From Naegleria gruberi (lineage: Eukaryota), in assembly GCA_000004985.1 (NCBI GenBank), contig GG738867.1: a stretch of 64,000 bases of DNA; one strand, written 5' to 3'. This document shows positions 14,602 to 48,499 of the stretch, piece by piece. Position 1 is the first letter of the stretch; each line of letters opens with the position of its first letter. The position numbers and the translations under genes were made by a program. Under the pieces are notes generated by a model. It was not told where the DNA came from. It was given only the letters and a program-made list of their open reading frames with translations, and did not search any database.

Positions 14602-17600
14602 TTATAAAATTTCCTTTCTTTGAGCATTGGGTGGTTCTCTAATTCTGGCAATTTTGATGAATTGCTCGACAGTCATGGTGCTTCCATAGAGTGCAGAGGC
14701 TTCTCGTTGTTGCTTTTGGATCATCATTTGGATTTGGAAAACTGGTTGGATGGCAAAGTCAACTCGACACTTTTCCAATCTGTTCATGGCTGTGGCAAGT
14801 TCTTCAAATTTGGCCCATCGAATCATGTTATTGTGATGTTTCACATAGGTTTCAGTTGAGTAAAAGTAGCTCAATTCTTCCTGTTGTAAAAAATCCATAA
14901 AATGATTCTGAATATACATGAGCTCTCTCAAGTGAGCTTCAACAATTGGAAGACAAGGAGTTCTGCATCCATCAAATAGGTCATTATAATTCTGATATCG
15001 AGAATCTTCAACAACTACTACATCGATATGATAATTGGATGGATCAAATCCGAAAAAGATGTCATATTTGGATTTGAAATGAATGAGGGATGGAGTTGGC
15101 ATGTGAGAGAAGGAAGAATCTTTTGATTTGGCAGTATGGTGATCCTCATAAAAGACTACGAGTGGATTAGTTTCCACTTCTTCAGCTTCATTGTCATCCT
15201 CTGAGGCAATTTGTTGCTGTTTGATTGAGTTGTTGACACTTGTTGGAATTACTCTGACAGTGCTTATTGATTCCTTTCTTCTGACAATATTTGGAGATGG
15301 AAGGGAACTTTCTACATTGACAGAAGTGGAACTATTGATAGAGAATGAGTCGAATGAGCCTGATTTTCTCATTTCTTGAACAATGGTATGGCTGTGTTTT
15401 GGGTGACCGAGATTTCTCACAATACTCTTGAAACTAAAGTTGGCATTTCCTTTGAATTTCTTTTTGGATTCATCGACAGTATGGTAGAGATTTTCCTTAA
15501 TGGCTGGATGTGAAAAGATGGTAGCAAGTGCATGGGCAGCACCATAGTTTTGCATATTGTACAATTCAATAATGATTTGCTTAATCTTGATGATCAATTC
15601 AACACGATCCTTGATGTGTGGTTTATCCAAGACATCACACATAAGCCAATTAGCTCTATCGTGGATCAACTCGAGATATTGACACAATTTAGGACAATTC
15701 ATCTTGAAATATTGAGATCTAAAATTGGAAATGGCCATATTGAAATCCAAGTAGCCATACGTCTTTTTACAATTCTTTACAGAGAGAATGGAATAATTCA
15801 AAAATTCAACACTCGAAATTTCACTATAAAAGTAATAATCCATAATAGTGAATTGTCTAGATAATTCTACAGGTGACACATCTGACCATTTGAGAGAGGA
15901 TGAAAAGACATTTGGAGGAATGTTTGGTCTTGGACATTTTGACGAGTCCATGTAAATGGTTTTGTAAAAGTGATAATATTCGTCAGTGTTGGTATTATCA
16001 TCATCAAGATTTTCATCGGTATCAATTGAAGTTTCCAAGGCATTCCTCTTTCCTCTTCTATTGTTGCCATTAGTGAAGATTACATCAGAATCTGATTCAG
16101 ATAAATGGGACGAGAAGAAATTAGACAACTTATCAGAGAATGACTCTGTGTCGGTCTTTTCAATTTCCAGCGAAGTGAATTGGGTATATTCCTTAATGCT
16201 GACCTTCTTTCTCAGATTCTTCTTACCTAAAATTGTTGCCATTTTCTTTTTCAATGTTGTATTGATAGTTTCACATAATTCGAGTGCATTTCCAACTTTT
16301 GATAGAGTCACAACCGAGTCTGGAATCTTGCTTGACTCAACCTTTTTCAATAAGTGTAGGGATTTTATCTGTTCGATAATCTTTGAGAGAAATTCGAACA
16401 TGTTTTGATTCCATTGATAGTAATATTCCGATAGCCAATAGCTCAACACATCGAGACAACAAATAATAATTTCAATACACTCTACAGTTTCCAAAAGTTT
16501 TGACATTGTGTTGGTAATTCTATCAACGTGTTCACCGACTGATTCTTCAAGAATATTATCATTAGTGACATCAGTAGAGGAAAAGACTCCCTTACTATCT
16601 AATCCGAAATTTTTCATGATCAAGATGAGTGGAAGACTCAACCTTTCGAATATTTTCAATAGGAGACCATCTGGAGACAGAATGTGAACATATCCCCTGA
16701 AGAATGCCTTTCTAAAAGTGTCCTTTGTTTCGATTCTTGTCTCAGGACGTACACAATTCTCTCCAAATACTTCGAAATAATCATTAGCAACAGTATCGTA
16801 TTCTCTGAAACGAATCTTACTCATAGTATCGAATAGTCTGTGCTCAGTGACTGTAACCATTTCAATGAGTTTGTTCAAAGTCAATCCAAATAAGACGTTG
16901 TGATTCTTATCGTCGTCTTTGAATGTATAAAAATTGGAGAATGAGTCAAATAATTCATGATGTTCTCCAGTGCTTTGATTCTTCCTCTCTATGAATAGTT
17001 TTCGTTGTTTGATATCATTTGAGGTCAGAGTTTCGAATGCAATCTTGGGAATGTTTGAGAACTCCTCCCAATAGGAAGGTTTCAGAGAGAGCTTGTTAGA
17101 TTGAGAACGAAGGAGGAATTTTTGGAAGAAATTTTGAGTTACTGTTTTCGAAGGAATGAAAGTGTTTCTTCTGATGGTACTTTCTCTCACTCTCGATTTG
17201 GCAGGCGAGAGAGGAGAATTTTTGCTCGATAAAGTGCTAGCTCTTCCATGAATGGAACGAAGCTTTTCCAATGTTTCGGCAGCTGTTGGTCTTCCAATAG
17301 GATTAGGATCCAATAATTTACAAATCAATTCGGCCAATTCAGTTCCATTAGTTACACATTCCATAACTTGTTGTCTGAGTTGGGCATGGAAATTCACATT
17401 CTGATACACCTCAATGTAAAATTGTCTATTCAAGACTTGGAACAAGAGTTCATAAAATACACAACCAAGAGACCACATATCTGTCGAATATCCATATGGT
17501 TCCTGGGACATCATTTCTGGTGAGCAATATTTAACAGTACCCAGAAGAGTTTGTTCAGAGCTAAAGCTTTGTGGAACAAGAAGCTGGTCAGTGTGAATAC

Positions 17601-18426
17601 TGCCATTATTCCTATTGAAAAAATTACCTCTTTCCTTTTCCAATTCTACTGCTTCTTCACTGGTGGAGAATTTCATCTTTTTCATAGTTTCAAAATCTCC
17701 AATCTTGATCGACTTTTCATCATTGGTAACAAAAATGTTACTCGGCTTTAAATCCAAATGTACAAATCCCTCGGAATGCAAATACTTGACACCCTCTGCA
17801 ATTTGAATCATGTAACTCAATAATTGATCTCTCGAAATGACTTCAAATATTGAATTGACATGACAATTATTCGTACTTTCGTATTGTTTAGTTTTCTTCT
17901 TCAAATAGGTATCCAAATCACCATGTTTAAAGTATTCCATTTGAAAGCAAATCCAATAACTTTGTTTCTTATCAACAAGCTGACTCAAATTCTCAACTTG
18001 CATCTTGATAGATGATGATGAATCGGAAGAAATTGAACCTGCTTCAGCAATTTCATTCTCATCCTCATCGTCATCTTCACTTCCAACAAGTAATTTGGAT
18101 TTTTCACTAGCTTCATTCTTTGTATTGGCAACAAACTGATTACCATTCACATTCCCAGTACCAGTACCAACACTATTTCCTCCTCCACCTCCTCCCAAAT
18201 TAGAATTACTATTCGAATTATTTGTATTCATAATATTTGCAAACTTTTCAAAAAAGATATCTTCAATTTCTACAAGATTTGGCGACTTTAAATGTCTCAA
18301 TTTCCATCCCTCAGATATAAATCTGTTCAACTCATCCTCCGAGTAGCATTGTGTCTTTTTGAGAACTTTTGTAATGTGCTCTCGGGTGACAATGACGAGA
18401 ACCATTTGTTGATTATTCTTCATCAT
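14602..18426 (-). CDS. Dual-domain signalling protein with an N-terminal protein-kinase-like domain (atypical motifs) and a C-terminal RasGEF (CDC25-homology) domain; single exon, 1274 aa.
   Basis: Kinase-like motifs are HLDLKPSNIFV, IKIGDFE (DFG replaced by DFE) and GTVKYCSPEM, and I see no clear GxGxxG loop. The RasGEF motifs are ELSRQFTIMDYYFYSEI, ANWLMCDVL and MQNYGAAHALATIFSHPAI. The MMKNNQ start at 18426 is ATG ATG; an additional upstream exon is possible. Confidence 0.75.
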   Translation of the reverse strand: MMKNNQQMVLVIVTREHITKVLKKTQCYSEDELNRFISEGWKLRHLKSPNLVEIEDIFFEKFANIMNTNNSNSNSNLGGGGGGNSVGTGTGNVNGNQFVANTKNEASEKSKLLVGSEDDDEDENEIAEAGSISSDSSSSIKMQVENLSQLVDKKQSYWICFQMEYFKHGDLDTYLKKKTKQYESTNNCHVNSIFEVISRDQLLSYMIQIAEGVKYLHSEGFVHLDLKPSNIFVTNDEKSIKIGDFETMKKMKFSTSEEAVELEKERGNFFNRNNGSIHTDQLLVPQSFSSEQTLLGTVKYCSPEMMSQEPYGYSTDMWSLGCVFYELLFQVLNRQFYIEVYQNVNFHAQLRQQVMECVTNGTELAELICKLLDPNPIGRPTAAETLEKLRSIHGRASTLSSKNSPLSPAKSRVRESTIRRNTFIPSKTVTQNFFQKFLLRSQSNKLSLKPSYWEEFSNIPKIAFETLTSNDIKQRKLFIERKNQSTGEHHELFDSFSNFYTFKDDDKNHNVLFGLTLNKLIEMVTVTEHRLFDTMSKIRFREYDTVANDYFEVFGENCVRPETRIETKDTFRKAFFRGYVHILSPDGLLLKIFERLSLPLILIMKNFGLDSKGVFSSTDVTNDNILEESVGEHVDRITNTMSKLLETVECIEIIICCLDVLSYWLSEYYYQWNQNMFEFLSKIIEQIKSLHLLKKVESSKIPDSVVTLSKVGNALELCETINTTLKKKMATILGKKNLRKKVSIKEYTQFTSLEIEKTDTESFSDKLSNFFSSHLSESDSDVIFTNGNNRRGKRNALETSIDTDENLDDDNTNTDEYYHFYKTIYMDSSKCPRPNIPPNVFSSSLKWSDVSPVELSRQFTIMDYYFYSEISSVEFLNYSILSVKNCKKTYGYLDFNMAISNFRSQYFKMNCPKLCQYLELIHDRANWLMCDVLDKPHIKDRVELIIKIKQIIIELYNMQNYGAAHALATIFSHPAIKENLYHTVDESKKKFKGNANFSFKSIVRNLGHPKHSHTIVQEMRKSGSFDSFSINSSTSVNVESSLPSPNIVRRKESISTVRVIPTSVNNSIKQQQIASEDDNEAEEVETNPLVVFYEDHHTAKSKDSSFSHMPTPSLIHFKSKYDIFFGFDPSNYHIDVVVVEDSRYQNYNDLFDGCRTPCLPIVEAHLRELMYIQNHFMDFLQQEELSYFYSTETYVKHHNNMIRWAKFEELATAMNRLEKCRVDFAIQPVFQIQMMIQKQQREASALYGSTMTVEQFIKIARIREPPNAQRKEIL

Positions 18427-18922
18427 GGATGAATCTGCTATGGAGAGTAAATCAGCAGCAGGAATGTTATTTGTGGAGGCATCAGAAAGAGCGAGAGAAT
18501 TATGTGGTGAAGATGATGAGATGATGATTATTGATGGGATTCGAATATTGATGACTTCCGAAACTAGAGGAAGAAATTCGTTGTGAATTGGAAACGGATA
18601 GACATTTAACCACTTGATATTGTTGTTGCGAAGATGATGACTTCATCCTCGATGCTCTGGTGAACTAGTTTAAAATGTGTTGAGATGAAGAGGCTAAATA
18701 TTATTCGAAACGAAGCAGATTTTTTTGGACTGTAATATGACAAGTTAATGAGGTGTCAGATAGGTGCATCCAATTTTGCCTTTTACAATTTCTTCCTGTA
18801 CTGTAATCAAACTCCTATTCAAAGGTTACACAATCAAATTGGCGCCATTTTAAAATCTTTTTGAAAAATAAGAAAAATAGAAAAAAGGCACAAAACTTTG
18901 GAAAAACAAATTACAAAAAAAA

Positions 18923-20216
18923 ATGTCCTTATTTTCCAACTCATTATTCACGCCTCCTACAGTTGCTAATAGTGATGATTGTAAAGATTGCACAGAGGAG
19001 GGATTTACCAGTCCTATGAGTTATGTGTGTTCCGATTGTTCCTCCAATTTGTGTTGTTATCACGGACAAAAACATATGAAGGAAAATTCTGATCATTCTG
19101 TTGTAGCTAAATCAGCTTACAGTAGTAATAGTAGTAGTAATAGTGGAAATGTAACAACAAGTGGTAGCAATTTGTTTGGATTTATGAGTTCTTCTTCTTC
19201 TTCTGGTATTTTCGGATCAACAAGTAATAGTGCTAATAGTATTTTCGGATCAACAAGTGGAACAACAAGTGGTGGTGGTTTGTTTGGTAATAGTAGCAGT
19301 ACTAATAATTCTGGATCGATATTTAGTGGTGCTTTTTCAACTTCATCCCCGATTGTTGAGCTTACTCCAGAGGAAATTATGAAGAAAAATCTTGAAGCTG
19401 TTGAAATGTTTGAGAATAGTAGGGATTCTGCATTATCACTCTTTATTGCAATGCATAACCATGTTCCTGTTAACAATAGTTGTAAATTGATTTTGGTTGT
19501 AAGTGAAATATTTTCTAATTTTTTCATCTATTTGAAATATTGTTAGGGAGATAGCTGTGGAAAATCATCCTTTGTTAAAAGATTAATCTCAAATGAATTC
19601 CATGGGCCATACATTCCAACCCTTGGTGTCTCTGTTCATGCAAAGGTAAGCTCTCTTGATTAATATTAATTCAAATTGACTTTATTGAAGAAATTTGAAA
19701 CAACCCATGGTGATATCACTTTCAACATTTGGGATTGTGCAGGTCAAGAAAAGTTTGGAGGCAAGTTGACTTTATTAAGCAATTCTAATATTATTTTATA
19801 ACATTTTAGGATTGAGAGAAGGTTATTATATCAATGGTAATTGTGCCATCATTATGTTTGATTGTGTAAATTCTTTGAAAAGTGTTAATAATTGGCTTAG
19901 AGATGTTGTAAGAATTTGTGAAGGCATTCCAATTGTATTGTGTCTCAATAAGGCTGATCTCTTATCAGAGGAAGCAAGACAAAGACTCAAATTTGAAATA
20001 GCAGGTTTTCGTGGTCGTATTCTCAACTATTTCGAGTTGTCAAATAAGGATTCATTGAATTTGGAAGATCCACTCGAATATTTGGCCAAAGCACTGCTCA
20101 AAAACAAACATGTTTCATTCTTTTCCAAGGTAAGAAAGCAACAAGAAAATGTATTCCATCAAAAGCTTCAAAACACTTCCATGACAGCAGATGCCAACAT
20201 CAAGACAATTGAGTAA
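18923..20216 (+). CDS. Ran-like small GTPase with a 192-aa N-terminal extension (Cys/His zinc-finger-like cluster plus FG repeats); join(18923..19498,19547..19645,19691..19760,19810..20216), 384 aa.
   Basis: G1 is GDSCGKSSFVKR, G2 is PTLGVSV, G3 is WDCAGQEKFGG|LREGYY and G4 is NKAD, with the Ran-like CAIIMFD...NWLRDVVRICEGIPIVLC. The N-terminus has CKDC...CSDCSSNLCCYHGQKH followed by GIFGS/SIFGS/GLFGN repeats. The introns are GTAAGT..TGTTAG (48 nt), GTAAGC..TTGAAG (45 nt) and GCAAGT..TTTTAG (49 nt, GC-AG). Confidence 0.8.
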
Positions 20217-20394: not shown

Positions 20395-23300
20395 ATGTCA
20401 TCATCACACTCATTCACTCTAATCTTTCTAACTATTGCTGTTATATTGCTAACTTTAAATGGGCACTATTCGATATTTGCCTTTGATCTTACTTTTCCAA
20501 CATTTCCTGATGCCAAGTTTCGATCGGATACTTCCAATGCCACTGAAGTGTTTATTAAAGACTCAATTGACCAAATTGCTAAACAACTCGAGCCACCATC
20601 TTTAGCTCTTCCATATTATATTGATGGACCAATAGCACTATTCGCAGAAGTGGTTGGAGTTCTCTCAAATAGTGACACGTACAGTAAACCTTACGTAAAA
20701 CCACCAGATGTTATTTCGAATAGTACACACGAAATGTTGAACATAATGATGACCAAAGTATTGAACCGAGTAGAAACTGCCCTGTTAGAAACCAAATATG
20801 ATAAGCTTGTTATTGCTCTCGTTATTGAACTCGATAAGGATCTTGAAGTTGCTGATTGTAACATTTCGCCAATCATTCCAATAGAAATATCAAAAAAACT
20901 TGCTGACATTACTGTCTATTTGACAATTAATGGTCATTCCTTGAATATGAAATGTGGTGGAGATTATTTATTCTCTAGTGGTCCAGATTCCAATTGGAAC
21001 ATTGTTATTAACAGAGCAGTACTTTCGAATATATATTTTACTGGAAATTATGTTTTCAAAAAGGTTGAATTTTTGGCTCAATGTGAAATATCAGCTTCTA
21101 GTTTTTTAGTATTCATCAAATCCAAGACTCTTCACACACTATATATTCCCTACATTAGTGCTATTAAGGAATTGATATTTATTGATAGTGTTATGGATAA
21201 ATTAAGAGTGGATTTCATTCAAGAGTTTCATCTATTTTTGGCAAGTAATAGTTTGATTGGTTTAGGAATGTTCGATTGTGAAATTAAGAATGTTTGGCTG
21301 TATAATTCAAAGGTTTATCTAGAAGACAGGTTTATTATTGAAAGTTCTGATCAATTCATATTATTTAACTCAACTATTCAATCAAAGAACTCTCCAATAC
21401 AGATGAGAATAGAATATTCGAAACTTATTTTCATAGATGGCTTTAAAAATTCTCATACTCCAATCATGCTCTCACTTTCACATTCCATTTCTGTTGTAAT
21501 GAAAAACATATTACTCAATTCTGCCACTTTACAACAAGAATCACTTCTTAATTTTCGAGGAATCAAATCATTATCCATCTATTCCTCCATATTTAAAGAA
21601 AACAATGCAAATAGAATTATAGACATTAGTGATTCAAGTGAGGTTGACATTAAAGAGATTTTATTTGAGGAGAATTCTGCTACTGATAGTCCAATTTGCA
21701 TTTCTCCTGGTGGAGCTAAGAGCTCACATACCCGTATTGTGGACAGTGTTTTTAATAGGAATAAGGCGGGAAATAAGGCAGTGATTGCATTGTCTCATCC
21801 AATTATATTGGCCCGATCTGTTTTTAATGAAAATGAGGGAGTTAGTGGAGGTTTGTATATTTTGATTTAAATTGGTGGTTGACCATGTTTAGGAGCTATT
21901 TATGTTGAAGCTGGATTTACTATTTCTGGGTCCACTTTCAAGAAGAACAAGGCCAAGAATGGAGGAGCTCTGTATATTCACTCAGAAATTGGTGCTTCAG
22001 GTACCATGCAAAATGTTGATTTTGTGGAAAATCAAGTAACAGATCTAGATGATGTTAAAGTGTGTGGTCAAGATAGTTGTGATGGAAGTGGAGGTGCTAT
22101 TTATTATAACCAAAACGACCTTTTCTCAATAATGTCATGCAATTTTGTCAAGAATTTGGCTGTCAGAGGAGGTGCCATCTTTGCAAATTTTGAAAATGAT
22201 ACCATTTTTATTACTTATTCGAAATTCAAAGAAAATTATGCAAGTTATGGAGGAGGTGCAATCTATTCTAATTCTGCCTCATATCTTCCATTAATTTATG
22301 AAGAATTGGGAAGTGGAAATAAGGCTAAAGTATTTGGAGATTATGTTGCTTCTTCCATTGCTAGTGTGAATTGGAGAGTTCAAATTGAGGATCAAAAAGA
22401 TAGATTATATGAAGGAAATCAAACTATTTCAGTATATCCAGGTCAATTATTTACCATTATTCCCTATTTTACTGACCTTTACAATAATTCTTTTGTAATG
22501 AATAAGGAAGTTTCAAAAATCAAAGTTTCAGGATCAAATTTCACAATTAGTCAATCATCAGAAAAGGAATTTACTAATCTATTCATTGCATCAACCGGTC
22601 CACTTCCAAATTCTGAACATTTACACATGACAACACTTACCATTTCATTTTACAAAACCGAAACCAATCTAAAAGTCCAACTTCTCCCCTGTCCAAAGAA
22701 TTTCTATTTGAAAGATAATCAATTTAGTAAGAATCTTGTCTGTGTCTATGAAGAATCCAGAGAATATCTGATTGCTGTAGCTGTTTCAGTAACCATTGTG
22801 GTCATTACCCTTCTCCTATGCTCAATAGGTGTCATTTCCATGCTCTGCTACAAGATATCCCACAAGGTAAAGTATTGGATGCGTAGAGATAAGGCAGAAA
22901 AGGAAATTGAAAAGCGATTACTCGAATCTGATCTATGTCCAGAAGAGGAATTGCTCAGTGTTCGAAATTTGAATTTTGTGATTAGTATTGATCAGATTAC
23001 ATTGGAAAGAAAGATTGGAGAAGGTGGTTCTGGAATTGTTTATTTGGGAAAATGGCATCACCATCCAGTTGCTGTCAAATGTCTTAAACTTCAAGATGCT
23101 TATCAAAATTCAGATGAAATTGAAAAGGAAGCAGCTCTATTATGCAAACTTAGACATCCCAATATTGTATTATTCTTTGGTGTTTCATTAACTCCACAGA
23201 AACAATATCTCATTGTGGAATATTTGGAGAAGGGAAGTTTGGAGAAACATATTTCATTAATGAAACGAAACCATCAATTCGAATTTGTTGACAAGTTGAA

Positions 23301-24086
23301 GCTTTTGATTGATATCACATGTGGAATGGCATATCTTCATTCCCTTAAAGTTATTCATAGGTATGTGAAATATTTAAACTATTTATTCCTAATATTCGAA
23401 ACAGAGATTTGAAACCTGGAAATATTCTATTAGATTCTGTTGGAGTAGCCAAAGTTTGTGATTTTGGCATTTCTAGAATTGCTGGAAACACTGCAGCAAA
23501 CTCCACAACCATCTGTGCTGGAACTTTAACCTACATGGCTCCTGAACTATTGCAATCAGATGCCGAAAAGAATCGAATTACAACCTCAGTCGATGTTTAC
23601 AGTTTCTCAATTATCATGTATGAAATATTCTTTGAGGAAGCTCCCTATGCAAAATCTTTGAAAATCAAACAATTTAAACAGGAAAGAAATGGAAAAATTC
23701 ATAATTCTCATTCAGAAGATGGTTTTTATAATAATCATCATCTTGTAACTCCATTTTCAGTTATTTCCAAAGTGATTAAGGGAGTGAGACCTGAAATTCC
23801 ATTCGAAAATCCACAAGATATTGCTGAATGGCTTCAATTATACATGTTTGAATATGGATTACTTTCCGATATTTGTAAATCAAAGGCAATTTCTATTGTA
23901 AATGATTATGTGGAATTGATGAAAGCTTGTTGGAGTGCAGAGCCAGATCAGAGACCAAACTTTGAAACTGTTCTCAATTGTCTTTCATTGTTGAGACAGC
24001 AATTTATGGACTTGACAGATTATCATAAACAGATATCTGGTTCTCTATCCTCTACATCAACAACTACTACAACTGCCTATGACTAA
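20395..24086 (+). CDS. Receptor-like protein kinase with a signal peptide, a Pmp-type (GGAI) parallel beta-helix repeat ectodomain, one TM and a TKL-like kinase domain; join(20395..21850,21893..23360,23405..24086), about 1200 aa.
   Basis: The signal peptide is MSSSHSFTLIFLTIAVILLTLNG. The ectodomain has repeated GGAIY/GGALY motifs separated by FxxN spacers. The TM is IAVAVSVTIVVITLLLCSIGVISMLCY. The kinase motifs are GEGGSGIVYLG, VAVK, HRDLKPGN, CDFGISR and YMAPE. A 42-nt in-frame intron (GTTTGT..GTTTAG) contains two stops, and a 44-nt intron (GTATGT..AAACAG) splits HR|DLKPGN. Confidence 0.8.
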
Positions 24087-24186: not shown

Positions 24187-25520
24187 TTATATTGAATTAC
24201 CGTGTAGAGATTCTTCTGCCATTGCATTAAAATTAGAAACAGTTTCGTCCTGTGAAACTGAAATACTACTACAAGGTGTACCATTAATATCATGTGGTGG
24301 AGTTGCAACTGGAGTGCCTGAATCAGAAGGCGACAAGATCAACTCTGAAATCTTTGCCTTCTCTCCAATTGGCACAAATACAGAGCTACGATTTCTTGGA
24401 CTTGTTGGAATTGTTTTCGTTTCGGAACAATTAGATTTCGTATCATCCATATGCAACTCTTTGAAAACTGTCTCAGTCTGAATGAATAACGGATAGAATA
24501 GAGCAAGAGTCAAGCTGGCAAAAAATAAAATTCCAGCACAGTTTACAAAATGCCAAATAAACTTGAATTCGTCCTTGTCAGCAACGAGTGCAGCTCCAAT
24601 GATTACTGCTAAAAGTTGAAGCAAGATACAGGCAATTAAGCCAATCAGGAGAGAGAATGTCACAATAAATGGGTTTTCCATCTTTTTTTGATGACTAGTG
24701 ACGTTCTTAATCTTTTGGATGGACTTTCGAATAGTTTTAATCACTAATATTCCAGAAGTTAAAATAGCAATGGTATCTTTTGCATATAAAACTAGAATAA
24801 TTCCAAATAGTACAAAGTTAAGGGTGGTAGTTTCTGTTTTGTTAAAGATATTAAACTTGGTCAGAGGAACAAATAAACTTGCCAAGGTTAATACAATGAA
24901 AGTGGCAATTACGAAAAGAACTATTGTGATCTGAGTAAAGATTCTAACTCTCTTGAATGCCTTCTTTGAAATGGCTCTCATGGTTACAGCAGTTCTCCAA
25001 CTATTTTTTCTATTAGAATCAAAACTAAATTATTCGAAACTTACAAAACCATCTGAACGAAAAACAAAATCACAAACAACATGATAAAGTTCAGAAACAT
25101 GAAGAATGATGAAAATCCAGCAGTTACCCAAATAGCCATATAGTGTGAGTAAGAAACCCTTTCACCTCTCTCAACAATTATTCTAGCTCTAATGAATAGG
25201 ATATCATTTACTATACGAATCAGTAAATTGATACATTGGATAGCTACCATGGACCCTGCCAATAAGAACATGATGATATGATTCCTTTTCATGATTCCTT
25301 CACCAACTTTCTTCTCAGACGAAACGTGTTGATGTTTAATTCTATTTCGAATAAGACTCAATAACAATCCAAAGCAAATAAAGTAAATAATAAACAAGCA
25401 CAAATAGAAACCAGAATTAGCCATCGAAGCAGCTGGACCCCATATTGGTGGAAAGGCATTCACAGACGAAACATTGACGAAACCATCACCAGGGAACGAA
25501 ACAGTAACATTTGAAGACAT
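24187..25520 (-). CDS. Seven-transmembrane receptor-like protein, paralog A; complement(join(24187..25000,25045..25520)), about 429 aa.
   Basis: I count seven hydrophobic helices, for example FYLCLFIIYFICFGLLLSLI, IIMFLLAGSMVAIQCINLLI and FIWHFVNCAGILFFASLTLALF. The N-terminus is short and N-glycosylation-rich and the C-terminal tail is Ser-rich. A 44-nt intron (GTAAGT..AAAATAG, phase 2) joins ...FFVQMV|FWRTAVTMRAISKK. Confidence 0.6.
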
Positions 25521-25975: not shown

Positions 25976-27296
25976 TCATTCAATCATTGCAATGACAGAT
26001 TCACTACTTGGTAAGGGCATGAAATTCGAAAGTGTTTCACCAGGAGTTTCATTCGAAAGTGCACTACTGCTCGATGTTCCAGAATTTCCCTGCAATATTT
26101 GCAATGTTGCATCACCAGGTGATAAAACCATTGCACTCTTCTTATTATCAATTGAAAGAAGCATTGAATTTCTATTATTCGATTCGTTTCTTCTACTTTC
26201 AGATAGATTAGAAATGTTTGACTTTGTATCATCAATATGCAATTCCTTAATCACCGTCTCTGTCTGAATAAACAATGGATAGAATAATCCAAGTGTCAAA
26301 ATGGCAAACATTAAAATTCCAGCACAATTAATGAAATGCCAAACAAATTTCAATTCTTCCCTATCAGAAACCAAAACTGCTCCGACAATTACTGCAAGGA
26401 ATTGAAGTAAAATGCAAGAAATTAAAGCTATCAGTAAGGAAAATGTGACAAGGAATGGATTTTCCATTTTCTTGTGTTGAGTGGAAATGTTCTTAATTTT
26501 CAGAATGGACTTTCGAATGGTTTTAATGACCAGTATTCCAGAAATGAGAATGGCAATGGTATCTTTGGAGTATAATAGAACGATTAATCCTAGTAAAATA
26601 AAGTTGACTGTGTTGCTTGTTGATTTTGAAAGGTAATCGAATTTCAATAGGGGAACTGAGATACTAATGAGGATTAGTAAGACGAAAGCAGCAAATACAA
26701 AGAGAGAAATGGTGATTTGAGTAAAGATTCTAACTCTCTTGAATGTCTTCTTTGAAATGGCTCTCATTGTTGCGGCAGTTCTCCAACTAGTTTTTCTGTT
26801 AGAAACAAAATATTAAATTATTCGAAACTTACAAAACCATCTGAACGAAAAATAGAATCACAAACAACATGATATAGTTAAGAAACATGAAGAATGATGA
26901 AATACTAGTCAATGACCACATGGCTGCATAGTGAGCGAAGGTTATCCTTTCACCTCTCTCAACAATTAATCTTGCCTCCATGAATAGGATATCAGAAACT
27001 AATCTGATCAGTAAATTAATACATTGAACGGCAACCATGGACCCTGCCAATATGAACATGATCACATGATTACGTTTCATCACTTGTTTAGTTCTGTTTT
27101 GATCCACTCTCTTTCGAATAGTTCTAAACAACAAGCCGAAACATATGAAATAAATGGCAAAGAGAACCAGATAGAAACCAGAATTAGCCATCGAAGCAGC
27201 AGTTCCCCACACAGGAGGAAATACATTCACAGACGAAACATTGACGAAACCATCCTCTGAAAATTTAATGGTTTCATTGCAACAACCTTTTGACAT
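25976..27296 (-). CDS. Seven-transmembrane receptor-like protein, paralog B, tandem duplicate of 24187..25520; complement(join(25976..26786,26833..27296)), about 424 aa.
   Basis: Paralog B is about 70-75% identical to paralog A over the same 7-TM topology, for example MRAISKKTFKRVRIFTQITISLF versus MRAISKKAFKRVRIFTQITIVLF. The intron is at the homologous position (46 nt, GTAAGT..AAACTAG) and the flanking nucleotide sequence is nearly identical to paralog A. Confidence 0.6.
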
Positions 27297-32076: not shown

Positions 32077-32933
32077 TTAAATAATATCTTGAACATTCTT
32101 CAAATCGGTTTCCTTTGAATTGGATGCTGAAATTGATGAGAATAATCCACCTCCACCACTATTTCTTCTCTTCTTCTTTTCATCTTCGAATGGATTGGTT
32201 TTTGGTTGTTGTCCTCTTTCGAAATCTCTCATCTCCCTCACAATACTCTCAAAACATTCCTTGAGATTTTCAGTAGTTTTGGCACTAGCAAAGAATAATG
32301 GTGTATTCTCTGGTAGTAACAAGTGTGTTTTCATGAATTCTTTGGTTTCCTTCTCGGTAATTCCTTTTAATTTTGGATTTTCCTTCAGCATATCAACCTT
32401 ATTTCCGATTATAATTATTGGACATTCCTTTCCATCGACTGGTTTGTTGACATCCATCTTGATTCTGGAAATTCTCTCGGTATACTTTTGTAATTCTTCC
32501 AAGGATTGATGAGAAGTACAATCAAAGACCAGGACGAAACCGAATGCTGTTCTCATATAAACATCCTGGAGAGCAGAGAATTCATCTGATGTATTATAGA
32601 ATTAATAATTATTATATAATTAATAATATTTTGATGATGATGAAAATAGGATAATTTAGAAATTAATTTTCAGAAACACAAACCTTGTCCAGCAGTATCT
32701 ACAATTGTCAAATAGGTTGTTTTGTTATCAACTTTTCTAGCAATATCAAAGGTATTCTCAATAGTTGGATCATAGCTATTTGAAATATTCCATAATGATT
32801 TATTATGTGATAATACTTACATTTCAATGAATGTATCTTGAGTCCATCTAATGGTGATTGACGATTTACCAACACCTCCACCTCCACATACAGCAAATGT
32901 AAAGCATTCTTCTCCTTTATCGTTCTTTGGCAT
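32077..32933 (-). CDS. Ras-family small GTPase (Ras/Rap-like, no CAAX box); complement(join(32077..32585,32684..32775,32821..32933)), about 237 aa.
   Basis: Exon 1 encodes MPKNDKGEECFTFAVCGGGGVGKSSITIRWTQDTFIE (the P-loop). Exon 2 encodes YDPTIENTIDIARKVDNKTTYLTIVDTAGQ (switch I and II). Exon 3 encodes DEFSALQDVYMRTAFGFVLVFD...IIGNKVD...FFASAK. The introns are GTAAGT..CAAATAG (45 nt) and GTTTGT..ACATCAG (98 nt). Confidence 0.8.
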
Positions 32934-33219
32934 GATGATTTTTTTTGATTAGTGATGAATAGCTGTTGACATCTCTTGCATTGCAAGTTGAAACAAAGAA
33001 CAAGAGAAGAACCTTGTTCATGATGAACATGAGAACTAATTTCAACCAACTCATCTATGTTCTGAACAAATTAAATATTATTTAATATATTATTAATAAT
33101 TAAATAGCTATGTTATATATATTAAATTAAAACATAAGCCACTTTCCTTTCCTCATCAAAATACCGAATAGGGTTGGGAATTCTAACAACGGCCCATTCT
33201 AAATAATTTGCAAAACAAA

Positions 33220-36200
33220 ATGGAAGACATGTACCTGTGGGATGAAGATTTGATGGAGGCTCTTCATCAATCCAATATCGATCATTTTGCCACTAATAAA
33301 TCATCAAGCAACTCCTCCAAGCACAACAAGAACAGCACAGATTGTATTGAATTCTCCAAATTAGAGTTTGGTAATTTCGATGATCGAGAAATGACCACCT
33401 TCCGAAGGGTAACCACTCGACACTCCTTTCATGATGTTCATTCGACAAGTTTCAAGGTATATTGGAAGGAAGGTGGTGATTTTTCAGTCTTCTTTCTGAT
33501 TAAACCTCATCATCAGTTTTGGATTGAAATCAATAGAAACATTATACGGAAGGTAATCATTGTTGATAATGAAAGTATTGCCATTGTACTGGATCAGGCT
33601 CCAAGTGTTCACAGAAAACGTGATGGTGATGATAACAAGACAAGAATGGCTGCTCCAACTGATAAAACTACTCAGGCACATAGTTTCTGGTTGCACAATT
33701 TCAATGTGACAAAATCTCTGCTCCTCTCTGGTATTCGATATGAGCATGTGGAAATTCTCAAAAGTAAGACTTCAAAGACACACTATTTATATGGAACAAA
33801 ATCATGTACAGCTCTAACAATGAAGGATGTGAATGGTATGGATTGGAAGGGCCAATTGAATATTGAGCTTGGTATTCCATTTCATACCATGTATTTATTA
33901 TTGTGCTTGAATTGTAAAGTTCCTGGCTTACTTGCTAGTTATGAAAGATTATCAGAGATTAAGCAACTCTTTAATGAATTGAAAGATAGTAACAACAACT
34001 CATATGACTTGGTGAATGTTGCTCTGGAAAAGTGTTTACAACACGAAGGGTTCTTTCCTTCAGAGTTTACTACTCTCTTCAAAAAACATTCTCACAAACG
34101 CCAACACAAAAGCTTTGTAAAGGTTGATGACAATATGTTTGAAATCAGAAAGGTAATGATCACACCAACAGGAATCAAGTATTTCCCAAAAATCCTCGAA
34201 TCTGGAAATCGAGTCTTGAGAAAATACAAGCAATACGAAGATAGATTTCTCAGAGTGACATTTTGTGATGAGGGTCTTAATAGAGTTAGCGCTGAAAAGG
34301 TCACAAACATGCACCCTCGATTGGAGGAATTCCTTAATAATGGTTTTACTATTGGAAATAGACATTATGAGATGTTGGCCTATTCGAATAGCCAACTCAG
34401 AAGTCATAGCTGTTGGTTTTTGAATACGGAAGGAATTCGTGAACTGTCAGTGAGTTCTATCATTGAAGGTCTTGGTGACTTTTCTGATATTAAAGTAATG
34501 GCCAAATATGCTGCAAGAATTGGTCAATGCTTTTCCAATACTTTCAATGGTATCAAATCAGAATTTATAGAAGTAAATGATATTGTCTATCGAGAAATTG
34601 AAAGAAATGGGGACATTAAGGAAAACGTTCTCAATGACGGATGTGGCCGAATGTCTGTAAGTTTTGCAGAACAGGTTAGCAAGCAAATGAAAATTAGAAT
34701 TCATGGCAAAGCCTACATTCCATCAGCTTTACAATTCAGATTGGGTGGCTATAAAGGGGTAGTAGTACAAGATAAGGATGTTGCTGATATATTTGGAAAG
34801 GATCTGGTTCTCACTAAGAGTCAAAACAAGTTCAAGGACGAAAAGAGTGATGAATTTGAGATGGTAGCCTTCTCGAAACGTCCAAAGTTTTCCAGTCTCA
34901 ATAGACAAATTATTATTCTACTTTCCTCCAATGGCTTGCCTGACAGTGCCTTGATGAAATTTGTAGATAGAGAGATAGAGACTTGGAGGTCAAGAACAAC
35001 AAAAAAACTGAGTATTAGAAAGTTACTGAGAAAGGTGTGGGAAAATGTGGTTGGTTCGAATATCAAAAAGGTCATTTCATCAGAGTATTTAGATCTCAAA
35101 GCTCAGGTCCTTGCAAGTCAGGTCAAAGGAATGTCACAACAACATGTTGAATACTTTTACAATGTTGATCCATTACTCTGTACTCTATGCGATAAGATTT
35201 TGATTAACCAATTCTCCAGCTTGAAAACAAATCTTCCAGTTGATAAGTGTTCACTATTGATGGGTGTTGTTGATTTTTATGGAGTGCTAGAAGATGACGA
35301 GGTTTTTGTACAACTTTCTTCATTTGAGAGCTATGAAAGAGATTTATATGATCCTGGCTCGTATGCTGAAGGTGGAATAGTGAGTGGAAATGTATTTGTT
35401 ACAAGGAATCCTTGTCTTCACCCAGGAGATGTTAGAAAGTTTAAAGCTGTCAGTGATGACAGAATTAATGTTCTCAAACATTTGAAAGATGTTATTGTAT
35501 TCAGTCAAAAATCAAAACAATCCCAGGCTAGCAAGATGAGTGGAGGCGACTTGGATGGGGACCTTTTCATGGTGTGTTGGGATCCAGAGCTTTTAAATTT
35601 CACAGAACATAAACCAATGAAACACACTCAACTGAAACCTTTGGAAAAGAATGATGGTTTTGATTATAAGGCAATCAGAGATTTTCTTAAGGAGTATGTT
35701 GTGAATGACAATTTGGGAGTAGTTGCTTTTATGCATATGGAACACTATGATCAATCTTCAAAGGGAGCACTCGATCAAAACTGTTTGGATCTTGCTGATT
35801 ATCACTCTCACCAAGTTGATTATGCCAAGACTGGTGTTAGAAAGGCCTTACCAATGGAGCTGGTATCAGAGTATAGACCTCACTATATGCCAAAAAGTTT
35901 CATGAAGAAGACTTATCATTCAACCAAAATTATAGGAAAGAGTAAGTTATTGAGAATTTGATTTTTCTAACCACACAACAGTTCATGATAAGGTTGAGGA
36001 ATTTATGAAATCAAACAAAAAATTGAAAGAGAAGGTTAAAGAATCCGATCCCTTCCATCCACATTTTAAAACTTTGGATCTATTATTTGTAAAATACAAA
36101 CCTCTACAAATGCTTTTCATAGAGCATGACCAATTAAAGGAAGTGAAGAATGCCAATGAGGACTCTTTAATAACCAAAGATATTGCGGATATTTACAATT

Positions 36201-47710: not shown

Positions 47711-48499
47711 TTATTTTTGATAAGAACCACCTTGGTATTGTTGTTGACCAGAAGTTCCAAATCCTTGTTGAGAGGATGGAATATTTGGAATATTAGATTG
47801 ACCAGGTGTTGTACCAGTTGTTGTGCTAGTCCAAGTTTGACCAACAGTTTGTTGACCAAATCCAATACCTCCAGGTTGTTGACTTCCTAATCCTTGTTGA
47901 CCAATACTACTTGGTTGCAATGGTTGTTGCTGGTTAAAACCTTGTTGACCAAAACCACCACCATATGATTGTTGACCTGTGCCAAATCCTTGTTGTCCAT
48001 AAGTTTGTCCAGTTAAGCCAGGTTGTTGACCAACACCATAACCATGTCCAATACTTGGCTGTTGTCCAGTCAATCCTTGTTGCTGTCCATACAAGCCTTG
48101 TTGCTTCTTTCCTGGAATATTTTGGATTTGTCCTCCAGATCTAAGGTAAAGGAATGAATTGACAAATTCCTCAATTCCAACTCTTCCATTTTGGTCCTTG
48201 TCAACCATTCTTCCAATCAGTTTACTCTTAACCTTGTCATAACCTAATGCTTGAACTGCTTTCTTGAATTCCTTCTTATCCAAGAATCCAGTACGATCAC
48301 GATCGTATTGGTAGAAAACTTGTTCTGCTTGATTAATGTAAGTTTCCTTATTTTGCAAAACCTCATTGGAAACTGTAAAGTTTTCTGGTTGCCATCTTGG
48401 AGTCTTTCCTCTGTACCAAAATCCTTGCAATTTTCCAAGAATACCTTGTTGTTGACCAGTTACTCCGGTTGGTTGAGTTTGAGAGAATGTAGAGTGCAT
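47711..48499 (-). CDS. EF-hand calcium-binding protein with a Gly/Gln-rich C-terminal tail; single exon, about 262 aa.
   Basis: There are two canonical EF loops, [13 protein letters not shown] and [13 protein letters not shown]. The tail has (G/Q)-rich repeats [10 protein letters not shown]...GFGQQ. The ATG (MHSTF) is at about 48499; the track start at 48505 is TTG. Confidence 0.7.

What the first reader, a model, noticed from the sequence alone, without database searches (positions are those of the whole stretch)
18923..20216. Ran-like GTPase fused to an FG-repeat and zinc-finger-like N-terminal extension, spliced through a GC-AG intron
The G domain is clearly Ran-like (GDSCGKSSFVKR, WDCAGQEKFGG-LREGYY, CAIIMFD...NWLRDVVRICEGIPIVLC, NKAD). 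Canonical Ran is a bare G domain of about 215 aa with an acidic tail. Here 192 extra N-terminal residues carry a Cys/His cluster (CKDCTEEGF...CSDCSSNLCCYHGQKH) and nucleoporin-style FG repeats (NLFGF, GIFGS, SIFGS, GLFGN, SIFSGAF). FG repeats and Ran both belong to nuclear-transport machinery, so a covalent fusion is an unusual architecture. The third intron is the only one that restores FGG|LREGYY, and it uses a GC donor (GCAAGT...TTTTAG).
Basis: partly seen in the sequence, partly recalled or inferred. Interest (0 to 1): 0.6.

Follow-up and report, generated by a model that had tools for sequence, protein, structure and literature searches.

The report
Zinc-finger, FG-repeat, Ran-like fusion gene
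An unannotated Naegleria gruberi gene encodes a divergent copy of the nuclear-transport switch Ran that carries a zinc-binding module and a short nuclear-pore-style FG-repeat segment at its front end, and a second species has the same layout, so the fusion is real although its function has not been tested.

Summary
Window 18923-20216 (+) is a four-exon gene with introns of 48, 45 and 49 nt, encoding 383 aa. It has four parts: an eight-ligand Cys/His cluster, an uncharged S/N/G/T-rich segment with four [LI]FG motifs plus IFSG, a helical linker, and a G domain that matches Ran far better than any other small GTPase.

The fusion is not a gene-model artefact. The exon that encodes the zinc cluster and FG repeats also encodes strand beta1 (CKLILV) of the G domain. 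All parts of that exon show coding-type codon usage in the same frame. An environmental contig (L003) from another species has the same order of parts, with all eight zinc ligands conserved.

The window is Naegleria gruberi NEG-M. No public protein corresponds to this gene, so it appears to be unannotated.

The G domain is a divergent paralogue, not a canonical Ran:
- It keeps 46 of 58 Ran-invariant positions.
- Its P-loop is one residue short.
- SAK has become SNK.
- The acidic C-terminal tail is absent.

The GC-AG intron is supported by homology only; there is no RNA evidence. A role at the nuclear pore or with karyopherins is an inference. I rate this a new variant of a known kind, of moderate interest.

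The parts
18427..18922 (.). Divergent intergenic region and 5' leader. It lies between the ATG of the kinase-RasGEF gene on the minus strand (18426) and the ATG of this gene. It ends in an A-rich leader (acaaaaaaaaATG), with an in-frame stop at 18878.
   Evidence: The L003 homologue has the same poly-A context before its ATG.
18923..19498 (+). Exon 1, 192 codons: zinc cluster, FG segment, helical linker and strand beta1 of the G domain.
   Evidence: Open frame and codon usage. Canonical donor TTGGTT|GTAAGT. Homologous first exon in L003.
18980..19096 (+). Cys/His cluster, residues 20-58: C20-x2-C23-x12-C36-x2-C39-x4-C44-x2-H47-x3-H51-x6-H58. A presumed two-zinc cross-brace finger whose spacing fits a B-box type 1.
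   Evidence: All 8 ligands are conserved in L003, while C45 is not. Pfam gives only faint hits: zf-UBP 13.9, Trim66 B-box 15.1, HIT 15.4 and AN1 13.1 bits, all below their cut-offs. The AlphaFold2 model is unusable (pLDDT 47).
19106..19348 (+). FG-repeat-like disordered segment, residues 62-142. Motifs: NLFGF, GIFGS, SIFGS, GLFGN and SIFSGAF. S, G, N and T make up 61 of the 81 residues, and one residue is charged.
   Evidence: Shuffle test 0 of 200,000. Pfam Nucleoporin_FG 27.0 bits, E 8.7e-6, below the gathering score of 32.2. pLDDT below 50. FG/FS repeats are also present in L003.
19367..19456 (+). Predicted long alpha-helix, residues 149-178, linking the disordered segment to the G domain.
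   Evidence: AlphaFold2 predicts helix 149-178 with pLDDT 75-87. The sequence is not conserved in L003, whose linker instead carries KRPPKRQ.
19481..19498 (+). Strand beta1 of the G domain (CKLILV), encoded at the 3' end of exon 1.
   Evidence: Aligns to Ran FKLVLV.
19499..19546 (+). Intron 1, 48 nt, GTAAGT...TTGTTAG, phase 0.
19547..19645 (+). Exon 2. It encodes the P-loop GDSCGKSS, which is one residue shorter than GDGGxGKT, and switch I with the conserved Thr (YIPTLGVSVH).
19646..19690 (+). Intron 2, 45 nt, GTAAGC...TTGAAG, phase 0.
19691..19760 (+). Exon 3. It encodes the interswitch region and the start of switch II (WDCAGQEKFGG).
19761..19809 (+). Intron 3, 49 nt, with a GC donor in perfect extended consensus (GGAG|GCAAGT...CATTTTAG|G), phase 1.
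   Evidence: It restores FGGLREGYY without a gap. L003 has FGGLRDGYY with no intron at this point. Read-through meets a stop at 19799-19801. No RNA evidence.
19810..20216 (+). Exon 4. It encodes the rest of switch II, NKAD (G4), SNK (G5, normally SAK) and a non-acidic C-terminal helix. It ends ...ANIKTIE and then TAA. There is no DEDDDL tail and no CAAX motif.
20130..20165 (+). Optional in-frame candidate intron, 36 nt, GTAAGA...AAAAG. If spliced, it would remove 12 residues from the C-terminal tail. Undecided.

Best explanation
**What it is.** This is one real, previously unannotated protein-coding gene of Naegleria gruberi. It encodes a lineage-restricted Ran paralogue whose G domain is preceded by three parts: a two-zinc Cys/His finger, a short uncharged 'cohesive-type' FG-repeat segment, and a helix.

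**How it most likely works.** The FG segment gives the protein weak multivalent affinity for FG-binding transport receptors (importin-beta family, NTF2) or for the FG phase of the nuclear pore. The Ran-derived G domain keeps most of the switch II residues through which Ran contacts those same partners. The protein would therefore act as a pore- or karyopherin-tethered Ran-like module, not as the freely diffusing Ran switch.

**Why it cannot replace canonical Ran.**
- It lacks the C-terminal linker and the acidic DEDDDL tail. That tail provides the RanBP1 handle and the C-terminal switch.
- Its P-loop is one residue short, with Ser at the position equivalent to Ras Gly12.
- Its G5 motif is SNK, not SAK.

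Its nucleotide cycle is therefore probably altered: resistant to GAP, fast-exchanging, or even free of nucleotide.

**Shown.** The gene structure, the domain order, conservation of that order in a second species, and the Ran affinity of the G domain.

**Inferred.** Use of the GC donor, zinc binding, nucleotide binding, and any association with the pore or with karyopherins.
For: **Gene structure**
- All three exon junctions align to Ran without gaps.
- Codon usage is coding-like in frame 0 across the whole of exon 1.
- Intron sizes and donor sequences match the other introns in the window.

**The fusion**
- Strand beta1 is encoded in the same exon as the zinc cluster and the FG repeats.
- The L003 homologue has the same order of parts, 8 of 8 conserved zinc ligands, FG/FS repeats and an intact Ran-like domain.

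**Ran affinity**
- PDB sequence search: Ran at E 4.5e-48, Rab at about 1e-20.
- All of the top 50 Foldseek hits are Ran/Gsp1.
- 46 of 58 Ran-invariant columns are kept. These include K198, T217, D240, G243, Q244, K246, F247, R251, N295, K296 and D298.

**FG character**
- Four [LI]FG motifs in 81 residues, reached by 0 of 200,000 shuffles, with 1 charged residue.
- Nucleoporin_FG is the only non-GTPase Pfam family to hit the full-length protein, at E 8.7e-6.
- The segment is predicted disordered.

**Similar layouts elsewhere**
- Two transcript contigs from other protists carry F-rich or SLFG low-complexity sequence directly upstream of a Ran-like domain (P0001 and P0058).
- Those FG-preceded Ran-like domains cluster with the window gene and L003 in a neighbour-joining tree. 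WINDOW, L003 and P0001_d1 also share an H-to-L change at a Ran-conserved position.

**Established knowledge**
- Soluble transport cofactors combine a few FG motifs with a Ran-binding module: RanBP3/Yrb2, Nup50/Nup2, Nup153 and Nup358.
- In canonical Ran, K71, F72 and R76 of switch II contact NTF2.
Against: - There is no transcript, protein or localisation evidence of any kind.
- The FG segment is short (4-5 motifs) and scores below Pfam's gathering threshold (27.0 against 32.2 bits).
- S/N/G-rich low complexity is common in this genome.
- No pore-anchoring domain and no clear nuclear localisation signal were found in the N. gruberi protein.
- The one-residue P-loop deletion could abolish nucleotide binding. 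L003 has a normal P-loop, so the deletion is specific to this species and may reflect relaxed constraint.
- 12 of 58 Ran-invariant positions are lost.
- The neighbour-joining grouping with P0001 and P0058 could be long-branch attraction.
- The family is known from only two sequences, and two metagenome scans found no more.
Confidence: 0.45

Rival explanations
1. The gene and protein are the same, but the FG-like segment and the zinc finger work away from the nuclear pore. The segment could be a generic disordered or condensate-forming linker. Alternatively, the protein could act at another Ran-dependent site, such as the intranuclear spindle of closed mitosis or the gate at the base of the flagellum during the amoeba-to-flagellate transformation.
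For: - The FG segment is short and below the Pfam threshold.
- No pore-anchoring domain was found.
- Other low-complexity G/Q/F-rich tails occur in the same window, for example 47711-48505.
- Ran has known roles in the spindle and in ciliary entry (established knowledge).
Against: - The regular [LI]FG pattern in an almost charge-free spacer is the specific signature of FG domains that bind transport receptors. It is not generic low complexity.
- The pattern is retained in the L003 homologue at only 39% identity.
- The only other contigs with a similar layout again place SLFG or F-rich repeats next to Ran-like domains.
Confidence: 0.3
2. It is a degenerating or neutrally drifting Ran duplicate. 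The G domain would no longer bind nucleotide, making it a pseudoGTPase or an expressed relic, and the fusion would have no specific function.
For: - The P-loop is shortened by one residue.
- SAK has become SNK, the Gly before NKxD is lost, and 12 of 58 Ran-invariant positions are changed.
- The gene is absent from the public N. gruberi gene set.
- L003 carries a clearly degenerate Ran-like gene next door (AMKVD).
Against: - A 383-codon frame is intact across four exons, with three intact splice-site pairs.
- Codon usage is typical of the genome.
- All eight zinc ligands and most catalytic and switch residues are conserved, against an overall identity of about 39-50% to the homologue. That pattern indicates purifying selection.
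Confidence: 0.15
3. It is a gene-model artefact. Either the zinc-finger and FG open frame and the Ran-like exons belong to separate transcripts, or translation starts at an internal Met (such as Met178) and gives a bare G domain.
For: - There are no RNA data.
- Met154, Met162 and Met178 lie upstream of the G domain.
- The gene has no annotation in the reference proteome.
Against: - Strand beta1 of the G domain and the zinc/FG region are in one uninterrupted exon and one frame. The chance of such an open frame is 8e-6.
- Codon usage is coding-like throughout.
- An independent species has the same continuous first exon, running from a homologous ATG into FKIILVGDG.
Confidence: 0.05

Closest known systems
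Canonical Ran / Gsp1 (Ras superfamily, Ran family)
   Same: - The G domain is about 52% identical to canonical Rans (mean over 37 sequences). It is the best sequence and fold match by a wide margin.
- Switch II is retained as DxAGQEKFGGLRxGYY.
- The switch I Thr and the NKxD motif are present.
- There is no lipid-modification motif.
   Different: - It carries an N-terminal extension of about 186 aa, made of a zinc finger, FG repeats and a helix.
- It has no PALxPPE linker and no acidic DEDDDL tail.
- The P-loop is one residue short (GDS-CGKS).
- DTAGQ has become DCAGQ, and SAK has become SNK.
- There is a 2-residue deletion and a 3-residue insertion.
- It keeps 46 of 58 Ran-invariant positions.
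Nup153 and Nup358/RanBP2 (zinc fingers plus FG repeats that bind Ran in trans)
   Same: They combine zinc fingers, FG repeats and Ran in one functional unit.
   Different: - In those nucleoporins, Ran is a separate protein captured by RanBP2-type fingers (W-x-C-x2-C-x3-N-x6-C-x2-C) or by Ran-binding domains.
- Here the Ran-like domain is covalently attached.
- The finger here has different spacing (C-x2-C-x12-C-x2-C plus C/H3), lacks the Trp, and gives no Pfam zf-RanBP hit.
- The protein is far smaller and has no pore-anchoring region.
RanBP3/Yrb2 and Nup50/Nup2 (soluble cofactors with a few FG motifs plus a Ran-binding domain)
   Same: They are small soluble proteins that pair a short FG stretch with a module of the Ran system. 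They are the best functional analogy for a bivalent ligand of karyopherins.
   Different: They carry a RanBP1-homology domain that binds Ran. This protein carries a Ran-like G domain itself and has no Ran-binding domain.
AGFG1/HRB/Rip (ArfGAP zinc finger followed by FG repeats)
   Same: An N-terminal zinc finger is followed by FG repeats, in a protein that is not a nucleoporin and is linked to small-GTPase biology.
   Different: AGFG1 has an ArfGAP-type C4 finger (C-x2-C-x16-C-x2-C) and no G domain. No ArfGap Pfam hit was found here.
Unnamed multi-domain Ran-like ORFs in marine metatranscriptomes (P0001, 611 aa; P0058, 403 aa plus)
   Same: - F-rich or SLFG low-complexity sequence lies directly upstream of a divergent Ran-like domain.
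- P0058 and the first domain of P0001 share the DCAGQ/CCAGQ variant.
- The FG-preceded domains (the first of P0001, the second of P0058) group with the window gene and L003 in the neighbour-joining tree.
   Different: - They have two Ran-like domains per ORF and no zinc finger.
- Their low-complexity composition differs.
- They are only 45-50% identical in the G domain, and orthology is not established.

Membership tests
Ran family of small GTPases | The G domain is more similar to Ran than to any other branch of the Ras superfamily. | tested here: met
   PDB phmmer gives Ran at E 4.5e-48 and 167 bits, against the best Rab at about 7e-20. All of the top 50 Foldseek hits against the PDB are Ran/Gsp1.
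Ran family of small GTPases | Ran-type switch II: DTAGQEKFGGLRDGYY. | tested here: met
   The sequence is DCAGQEKFGGLREGYY. It has two conservative changes and no gap once intron 3 is removed.
Ran family of small GTPases | Intact G1-G5 nucleotide-binding motifs: GxxxxGK[ST], T, DxxG, NKxD, SAK. | tested here: not met
   G2 (T217), G3 (DCAG) and G4 (NKAD) are present. G1 is GDS-CGKS, one residue short, and lies entirely within exon 2, so the deletion is not a splicing artefact. G5 is SNK.
Ran family of small GTPases | C-terminal extension ending in the acidic DEDDDL-type tail. | tested here: not met
   The C-terminus reads ...KVRKQQENVFHQKLQNTSMTADANIKTIE. Every one of the 37 canonical Rans aligned has the acidic tail.
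Ran family of small GTPases | Single-domain protein of about 215 aa. | tested here: not met
   The protein is 383 aa with an N-terminal extension of about 186 aa.
Ran family of small GTPases | GTP/GDP binding, regulation by RCC1 and RanGAP, and binding to karyopherins. | not testable with these tools
   Only residue conservation can be reported.
FG nucleoporins | Several FG motifs separated by hydrophilic, low-charge, disordered spacers. | tested here: met
   Four [LI]FG motifs plus IFSG in 81 residues, with 1 charged residue. None of 200,000 shuffles reaches this count. pLDDT is below 50.
FG nucleoporins | A match to Pfam Nucleoporin_FG (PF13634) above the gathering score. | tested here: not met
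   27.0 bits against a cut-off of 32.2.
FG nucleoporins | A structured domain that anchors the protein in the pore scaffold. | tested here: not met
   No Pfam domain was found other than the GTPase families and the sub-threshold FG hit.
FG nucleoporins | Localisation at the nuclear pore. | not testable with these tools
   This needs microscopy or proteomics.
B-box (type 1) zinc finger | Eight ligands spaced C-x2-C-x6-17-C-x2-C-x4-8-C-x2-3-[CH]-x3-4-H-x5-10-H. This consensus is recalled from the literature, not tested against a database. | tested here: inconclusive
   The spacing C-x2-C-x12-C-x2-C-x4-C-x2-H-x3-H-x6-H fits, and all 8 ligands are conserved in L003. Pfam scores are far below their cut-offs: zf-B_box 8.1, Trim66 B-box 15.1 and ANCHR B-box 13.1 bits. 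zf-UBP, HIT and AN1 score similarly. The AlphaFold2 model has pLDDT 47, and the PDB profile search gave no meaningful hit.
RanBP2-type zinc finger (Nup153/Nup358) | W-x-C-x2-C-x3-N-x6-C-x2-C. | tested here: not met
   There is no Trp, the spacing between the Cys pairs is 12, and no Pfam zf-RanBP hit appears even at E up to 10.

The most novel reading that the evidence does not exclude
The window gene, L003 and the FG-preceded Ran-like domains of P0001 and P0058 together represent a family of 'FG-tethered Ran' proteins. It would be undescribed and phylogenetically wider than one lineage. In it, the Ran-derived switch is covalently embedded in the FG phase, or permanently coupled to karyopherins. 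That would be an alternative solution to the problem that other eukaryotes solve with Ran-binding nucleoporins (Nup153, Nup358, Nup50). In Naegleria it would act at the pore of a nucleus that never breaks down during mitosis.
Probability: 0.15. Interest if true: 0.8.

Novelty: new variant of a known kind. Interest (0 to 1): 0.5.

Why it matters
Ran is among the most conserved and architecturally invariant eukaryotic proteins. It is almost always a bare G domain with an acidic tail, and it meets FG repeats only indirectly, through karyopherins and Ran-binding nucleoporins.

A conserved gene that welds a Ran-derived domain to an FG segment and a zinc finger would be a natural experiment. It shows what happens when the switch is tethered to the permeability barrier or to its receptors.

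The gene is also absent from the reference annotation of a model free-living amoeboflagellate, possibly because of its GC donor. It would therefore have been missed by every published survey of Naegleria GTPases and pore proteins.

If the function turns out to be unrelated to transport, the finding reduces to a lineage-specific multidomain GTPase. Protists have many of those.

Tried and rejected
**Searches for more family members**
- The N-terminal 192 aa found nothing in the word-indexed 5.8-billion-cluster collection.
- The exhaustive representative search gave the single hit P0228.
- Two metagenome scans gave only chance matches. One used the pattern LC[CV]YHGQ. The other used the degenerate DNA for C-x-YHGQKH, which matched 82 loci, all screened by tblastn and by eye.

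**Classifying the zinc finger**
- Pfam at E up to 10 gave only faint, mutually inconsistent hits.
- A profile search of PDB sequences gave C2H2 linker and RPB12 noise.
- AlphaFold2 on the two-sequence alignment gave pLDDT 47, so I did not run a fold search on that model.

**Exact-sequence look-ups of window ORFs and of XP_002677358.1**
- All returned nothing. That index evidently does not hold the N. gruberi assembly.
- I therefore could not read the public annotation of this locus directly. The 'unannotated' statement rests on the protein searches.

**Alternatives I rejected**
- A RanBP2-type finger: the motif is not met.
- A second Ran-like gene in the window: tblastn finds only this locus, plus an ordinary Ras/Rab-like fragment at 32077-32556.
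- A GT-AG alternative for intron 3: it has a poor donor (GTTGAC), deletes a residue and loses the invariant Leu and Arg.
- A viral origin: the gene has spliceosomal introns and an ordinary host context.

**Literature searches**
- Searches for a described Ran-FG fusion, for Ran paralogues in Naegleria and for GC-AG introns in Naegleria found nothing relevant.
Full report
**1. What is in the sequence.**

The region 18923-20216 (+) reads as a four-exon gene.
- Exon 1 (18923-19498) ends TTGGTT|GTAAGT.
- Exon 2 (19547-19645) ends GCAAAG|GTAAGC.
- Exon 3 (19691-19760) ends TTGGAG|GCAAGT.
- Exon 4 (19810-20216) ends in TAA.

The introns are 48, 45 and 49 nt. Other convincingly placed introns in the window are GTAAGT...AG elements of 35-50 nt, so these sizes are normal for the genome. 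The product is 383 aa.

**2. Is exon 1 coding, and does it belong to the same protein?**
- The in-frame stop upstream of the ATG is at 18878. The ATG is preceded by an A-rich leader.
- At the window's stop-codon frequency (0.059 per codon), a 192-codon open frame has probability 8e-6.
- I trained a codon-usage log-odds score on 14 long ORFs of the window. It is positive in frame 0 for the zinc-cluster third (+0.25), the FG third (+0.41) and the linker third (+0.33) of exon 1. The G-domain exons score +0.22 and +0.32. The other frames score negative or lower.
- The last six codons of exon 1 (CKLILV) are strand beta1 of the G domain. They align to Ran FKLVLV directly before the P-loop, which starts exon 2. 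The G domain therefore straddles the exon 1/2 junction and cannot be separated from the upstream open frame.

**3. The G domain.**
- Against PDB sequences, the best 45 hits are Ran/Gsp1 (E 4.5e-48 to 1e-45), followed by Rab35 and Rab23 at about 1e-19.
- An AlphaFold2 model built with 37 Ran homologues folds residues 186-345 as a small-GTPase domain. All of its top 50 Foldseek hits are Ran/Gsp1, with target TM-score up to 0.75.
- Alignment with 37 taxonomically diverse canonical Rans shows gapless exon junctions and a Ran-type switch II (DCAGQEKFGGLREGYY). It also shows clear departures from canonical Ran:
  - The P-loop is GDS-CGKS, one residue shorter than GDGGxGKT. The deletion lies inside exon 2, so no splice choice can repair it.
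  - DTAGQ has become DCAGQ.
  - There is a 2-residue deletion after the strand that follows switch II.
  - GNKVD has become LNKAD.
  - There is a 3-residue insertion after NKxD.
  - SAK has become SNK.
  - The PALxPPE linker and the acidic tail are both absent.
- Of 58 columns invariant in the 37 Rans, 46 are kept. Of 101 columns at 90% conservation or more, 65 are kept.
- Mean identity to canonical Rans is 52%. Canonical Rans average 69% identity to each other.
- This is a divergent Ran paralogue, not the organism's housekeeping Ran.

**4. The N-terminal extension.**
- **Zinc cluster.** Residues 20-58 carry C-x2-C-x12-C-x2-C-x4-C-x2-H-x3-H-x6-H. Eight ligands imply two zinc ions in a cross-brace arrangement. 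The spacing fits the B-box type 1 consensus as I recall it. Pfam gives only sub-threshold, mutually inconsistent hits (zf-UBP, HIT, Trim66 and ANCHR B-box, AN1, IBR). A PDB profile search gives noise. AlphaFold2 gives an unusable model (pLDDT 47). It is not a RanBP2-type finger.
- **FG segment.** Residues 62-142 are 81 residues of S(31), G(13), N(9) and T(8), with seven Phe residues. Five of the seven are preceded by Leu or Ile, and four are followed by Gly. Only one residue is charged. No shuffle out of 200,000 reaches four [LI]FG motifs. Pfam Nucleoporin_FG hits at E 8.7e-6 but below its gathering score (27.0 against 32.2 bits). AlphaFold2 leaves residues 1-141 disordered.
- **Linker.** AlphaFold2 predicts a confident helix at residues 149-178.

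**5. Relatives.**
- **Full-length search.** It found only canonical Rans at about 50% identity over the G domain, plus a few longer ORFs.
- **N-terminal region in the word-indexed collection.** It found nothing.
- **N-terminal region in the exhaustive search.** This search covers 1.84 billion representatives and found exactly one hit: P0228 (E 9.6e-8, 39% identity).
- **The L003 contig.** P0228 lies on a 1,444-nt ENA metagenome contig, L003, with 40.5% GC. After an A-rich leader and ATG, it encodes CTDCSSKNFTSESTYRCTQCNTSLCVYHGQKHEKKYPTHTV, with all eight ligands aligned. Next come FG/FS repeats (LFGS, PFGS, LFGS, FSFSFS) in an S/T/N-rich, nearly uncharged spacer. A linker with KRPPKRQ follows, and then FKIILVGDG. 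After a 37-nt GTAAGT intron it continues GVGKSS...WDTAGQEKFGGLRDGYY...GNKID to the end of the contig.
- **What L003 shows.**
  - The architecture is conserved in a second species.
  - Its P-loop is intact.
  - It has no intron where the N. gruberi gene has the GC-AG intron, which supports the reading FGGLR[DE]GYY.
  - The contig also carries, 140 nt upstream, the 3' end of a degenerate Ran-like gene (AMKVD).
- **P0001 and P0058.** These two metatranscriptome ORFs hold two Ran-like domains each, with F-rich or SLFG low complexity immediately upstream of a Ran-like domain. In a neighbour-joining tree, those FG-preceded domains group with the window gene and L003, outside the canonical Rans. WINDOW, L003 and P0001_d1 share an H-to-L replacement at a position conserved at 90% or more in Ran. 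This is suggestive only, because long-branch attraction is a plausible alternative.
- **Further metagenome scans.** Two scans found no more members.

**6. Organism and annotation status.**
- The neighbouring genes are eukaryotic: PAN2, a kinase-RasGEF fusion, BTB/BACK, a kinase with Chlam_PMP repeats, a kinase with DUF4116 repeats, and an RdRP.
- The RdRP ORF at 33208-35961 is 913/913 identical to Naegleria gruberi XP_002677358.1 (NAEGRDRAFT_67488). The window is therefore N. gruberi NEG-M. Its 33% GC agrees with this.
- The collection holds N. gruberi RefSeq proteins, yet no protein matching this gene turned up. The gene therefore appears to be missing from the public gene set, and the non-canonical GC donor is a plausible reason.
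- I could not read the locus annotation directly. The exact-sequence index does not hold this assembly.

**7. The GC-AG intron.**
- The donor is GGAG|GCAAGT. That is the full extended consensus with C at position +2, as is typical of GC-AG introns (established knowledge). The acceptor is CATTTTAG|G.
- Read-through reaches a stop at 19799-19801.
- One in-frame GT-AG alternative exists (19765-19816). It has a poor donor (GTTGAC), deletes a residue and replaces the invariant Leu-Arg, giving FGGKEGYY.
- Homology to Ran and to L003 favours the GC-AG junction. RNA evidence is lacking.

**8. How it most likely works.**
- **Shown:** a conserved gene that fuses a zinc cluster, an FG-like disordered segment and a Ran-derived G domain.
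- **Inferred, tethering:** the FG segment provides weak multivalent binding to FG-binding transport receptors or partitioning into the FG phase of the pore. The G domain retains K246, F247 and R251 (Ran K71, F72 and R76, which contact NTF2), the switch I Thr and the catalytic Gln. It could therefore still engage Ran partners. The result would be a tethered, bivalent Ran-like ligand. The analogy is RanBP3/Yrb2, Nup50/Nup2 and Nup153, which pair FG motifs with Ran-binding modules.
- **Inferred, an altered cycle:**
  - Without the acidic tail, the protein cannot use RanBP1-type regulation.
  - The shortened P-loop has Ser at the position equivalent to Ras Gly12.
  - In SNK, the Ala equivalent to Ras A146 is replaced. 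In Ras, changes at that Ala accelerate nucleotide exchange.
  - Together these predict an altered or lost nucleotide cycle.
- **Confidence:** I give the gene and architecture about 0.9 and the pore or karyopherin mechanism about 0.3-0.35. The combined statement is scored 0.45.

**9. Rivals.**
- A function away from the pore (0.3).
- A drifting or pseudoGTPase relic (0.15). The intact four-exon frame and the selective conservation of the zinc ligands and switch residues argue against it.
- A gene-model artefact (0.05). The shared exon and the L003 homologue argue against it.

**10. Verdict.**
- It is a new variant of a known kind: a Ran-family paralogue with an undescribed domain architecture. 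It is so far seen in N. gruberi and in one environmental relative, and it is absent from the reference annotation.
- Interest is moderate (0.5). The architecture would surprise a Ran or nuclear-pore specialist and is directly testable. There is no functional evidence, the FG segment is short, and lineage-specific multidomain GTPases are common in protists.

Noticed in passing
window 18923-20216: The window is N. gruberi NEG-M, because the RdRP ORF is 913/913 identical to XP_002677358.1. Even so, no public protein corresponds to this gene. It appears to be unannotated, possibly because of the GC donor.
   Followed up: partly
window 20130-20165: An in-frame 36-nt candidate intron (GTAAGA...AAAAG) lies inside exon 4. 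If spliced, it would remove 12 residues (VRKQQENVFHQK) from the C-terminal tail. It cannot be decided without RNA.
   Followed up: partly
L003 1-435: On the contig that carries the homologue, the 3' end of a second, degenerate Ran-like gene lies 140 nt upstream. It reads ...ADAALVMFAI...VACAMKVD..., with AMKVD in place of GNKVD. This suggests a local expansion of Ran-like genes in that organism.
   Followed up: partly
L001 (P0001) and L002 (P0058): Two marine metatranscriptome contigs each encode two Ran-like domains in one ORF, with F-rich or SLFG low-complexity sequence just upstream of a Ran-like domain. In P0058 both domains carry a charged insert of roughly 45-50 residues after NKxD, and the contig retains an intron after WDCAG. 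In P0001 both domains have degenerate motifs (GNKFH and DVSGEK).
   Followed up: partly
window 24187-25044 and 25976-26832 (-): These are tandem paralogues (65% identity over 222 aa) encoding hydrophobic, probably multi-pass membrane proteins with no Pfam match. Each has a short GTAAGTTT intron at the same position.
   Followed up: partly
window 14602-18426 (-): A 1,274-aa single-exon ORF combines a protein kinase domain with a RasGEF domain. It is transcribed divergently from the Ran-like gene, with about 500 bp between the two start codons.
   Followed up: no
window 20395-24086 (+): A run of ORFs has a signal or transmembrane-like start, a Chlamydia-PMP-type repeat and a C-terminal kinase domain split by a short intron. 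It is probably one receptor-kinase-like gene immediately downstream of the Ran-like gene.
   Followed up: no
window 57453-59870 (-): An 805-aa ORF has five DUF4116 repeats followed by a protein kinase domain.
   Followed up: no
window 47711-48505 (-): This ORF has an EF-hand-like N-terminal part and a Q/G-rich tail containing GFG motifs. It was the only other stretch in the window with 3 or more FG dipeptides per 80 residues. Its composition differs from the S/N-rich FG segment of the Ran-like gene.
   Followed up: no
window 32077-32556 (-): This is the C-terminal half of an ordinary Ras/Rab-like small GTPase (GNKVD, SAK). Together with 18923-20216 it is the only Ras-superfamily match found in the window when I searched with Ran.
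   Followed up: no
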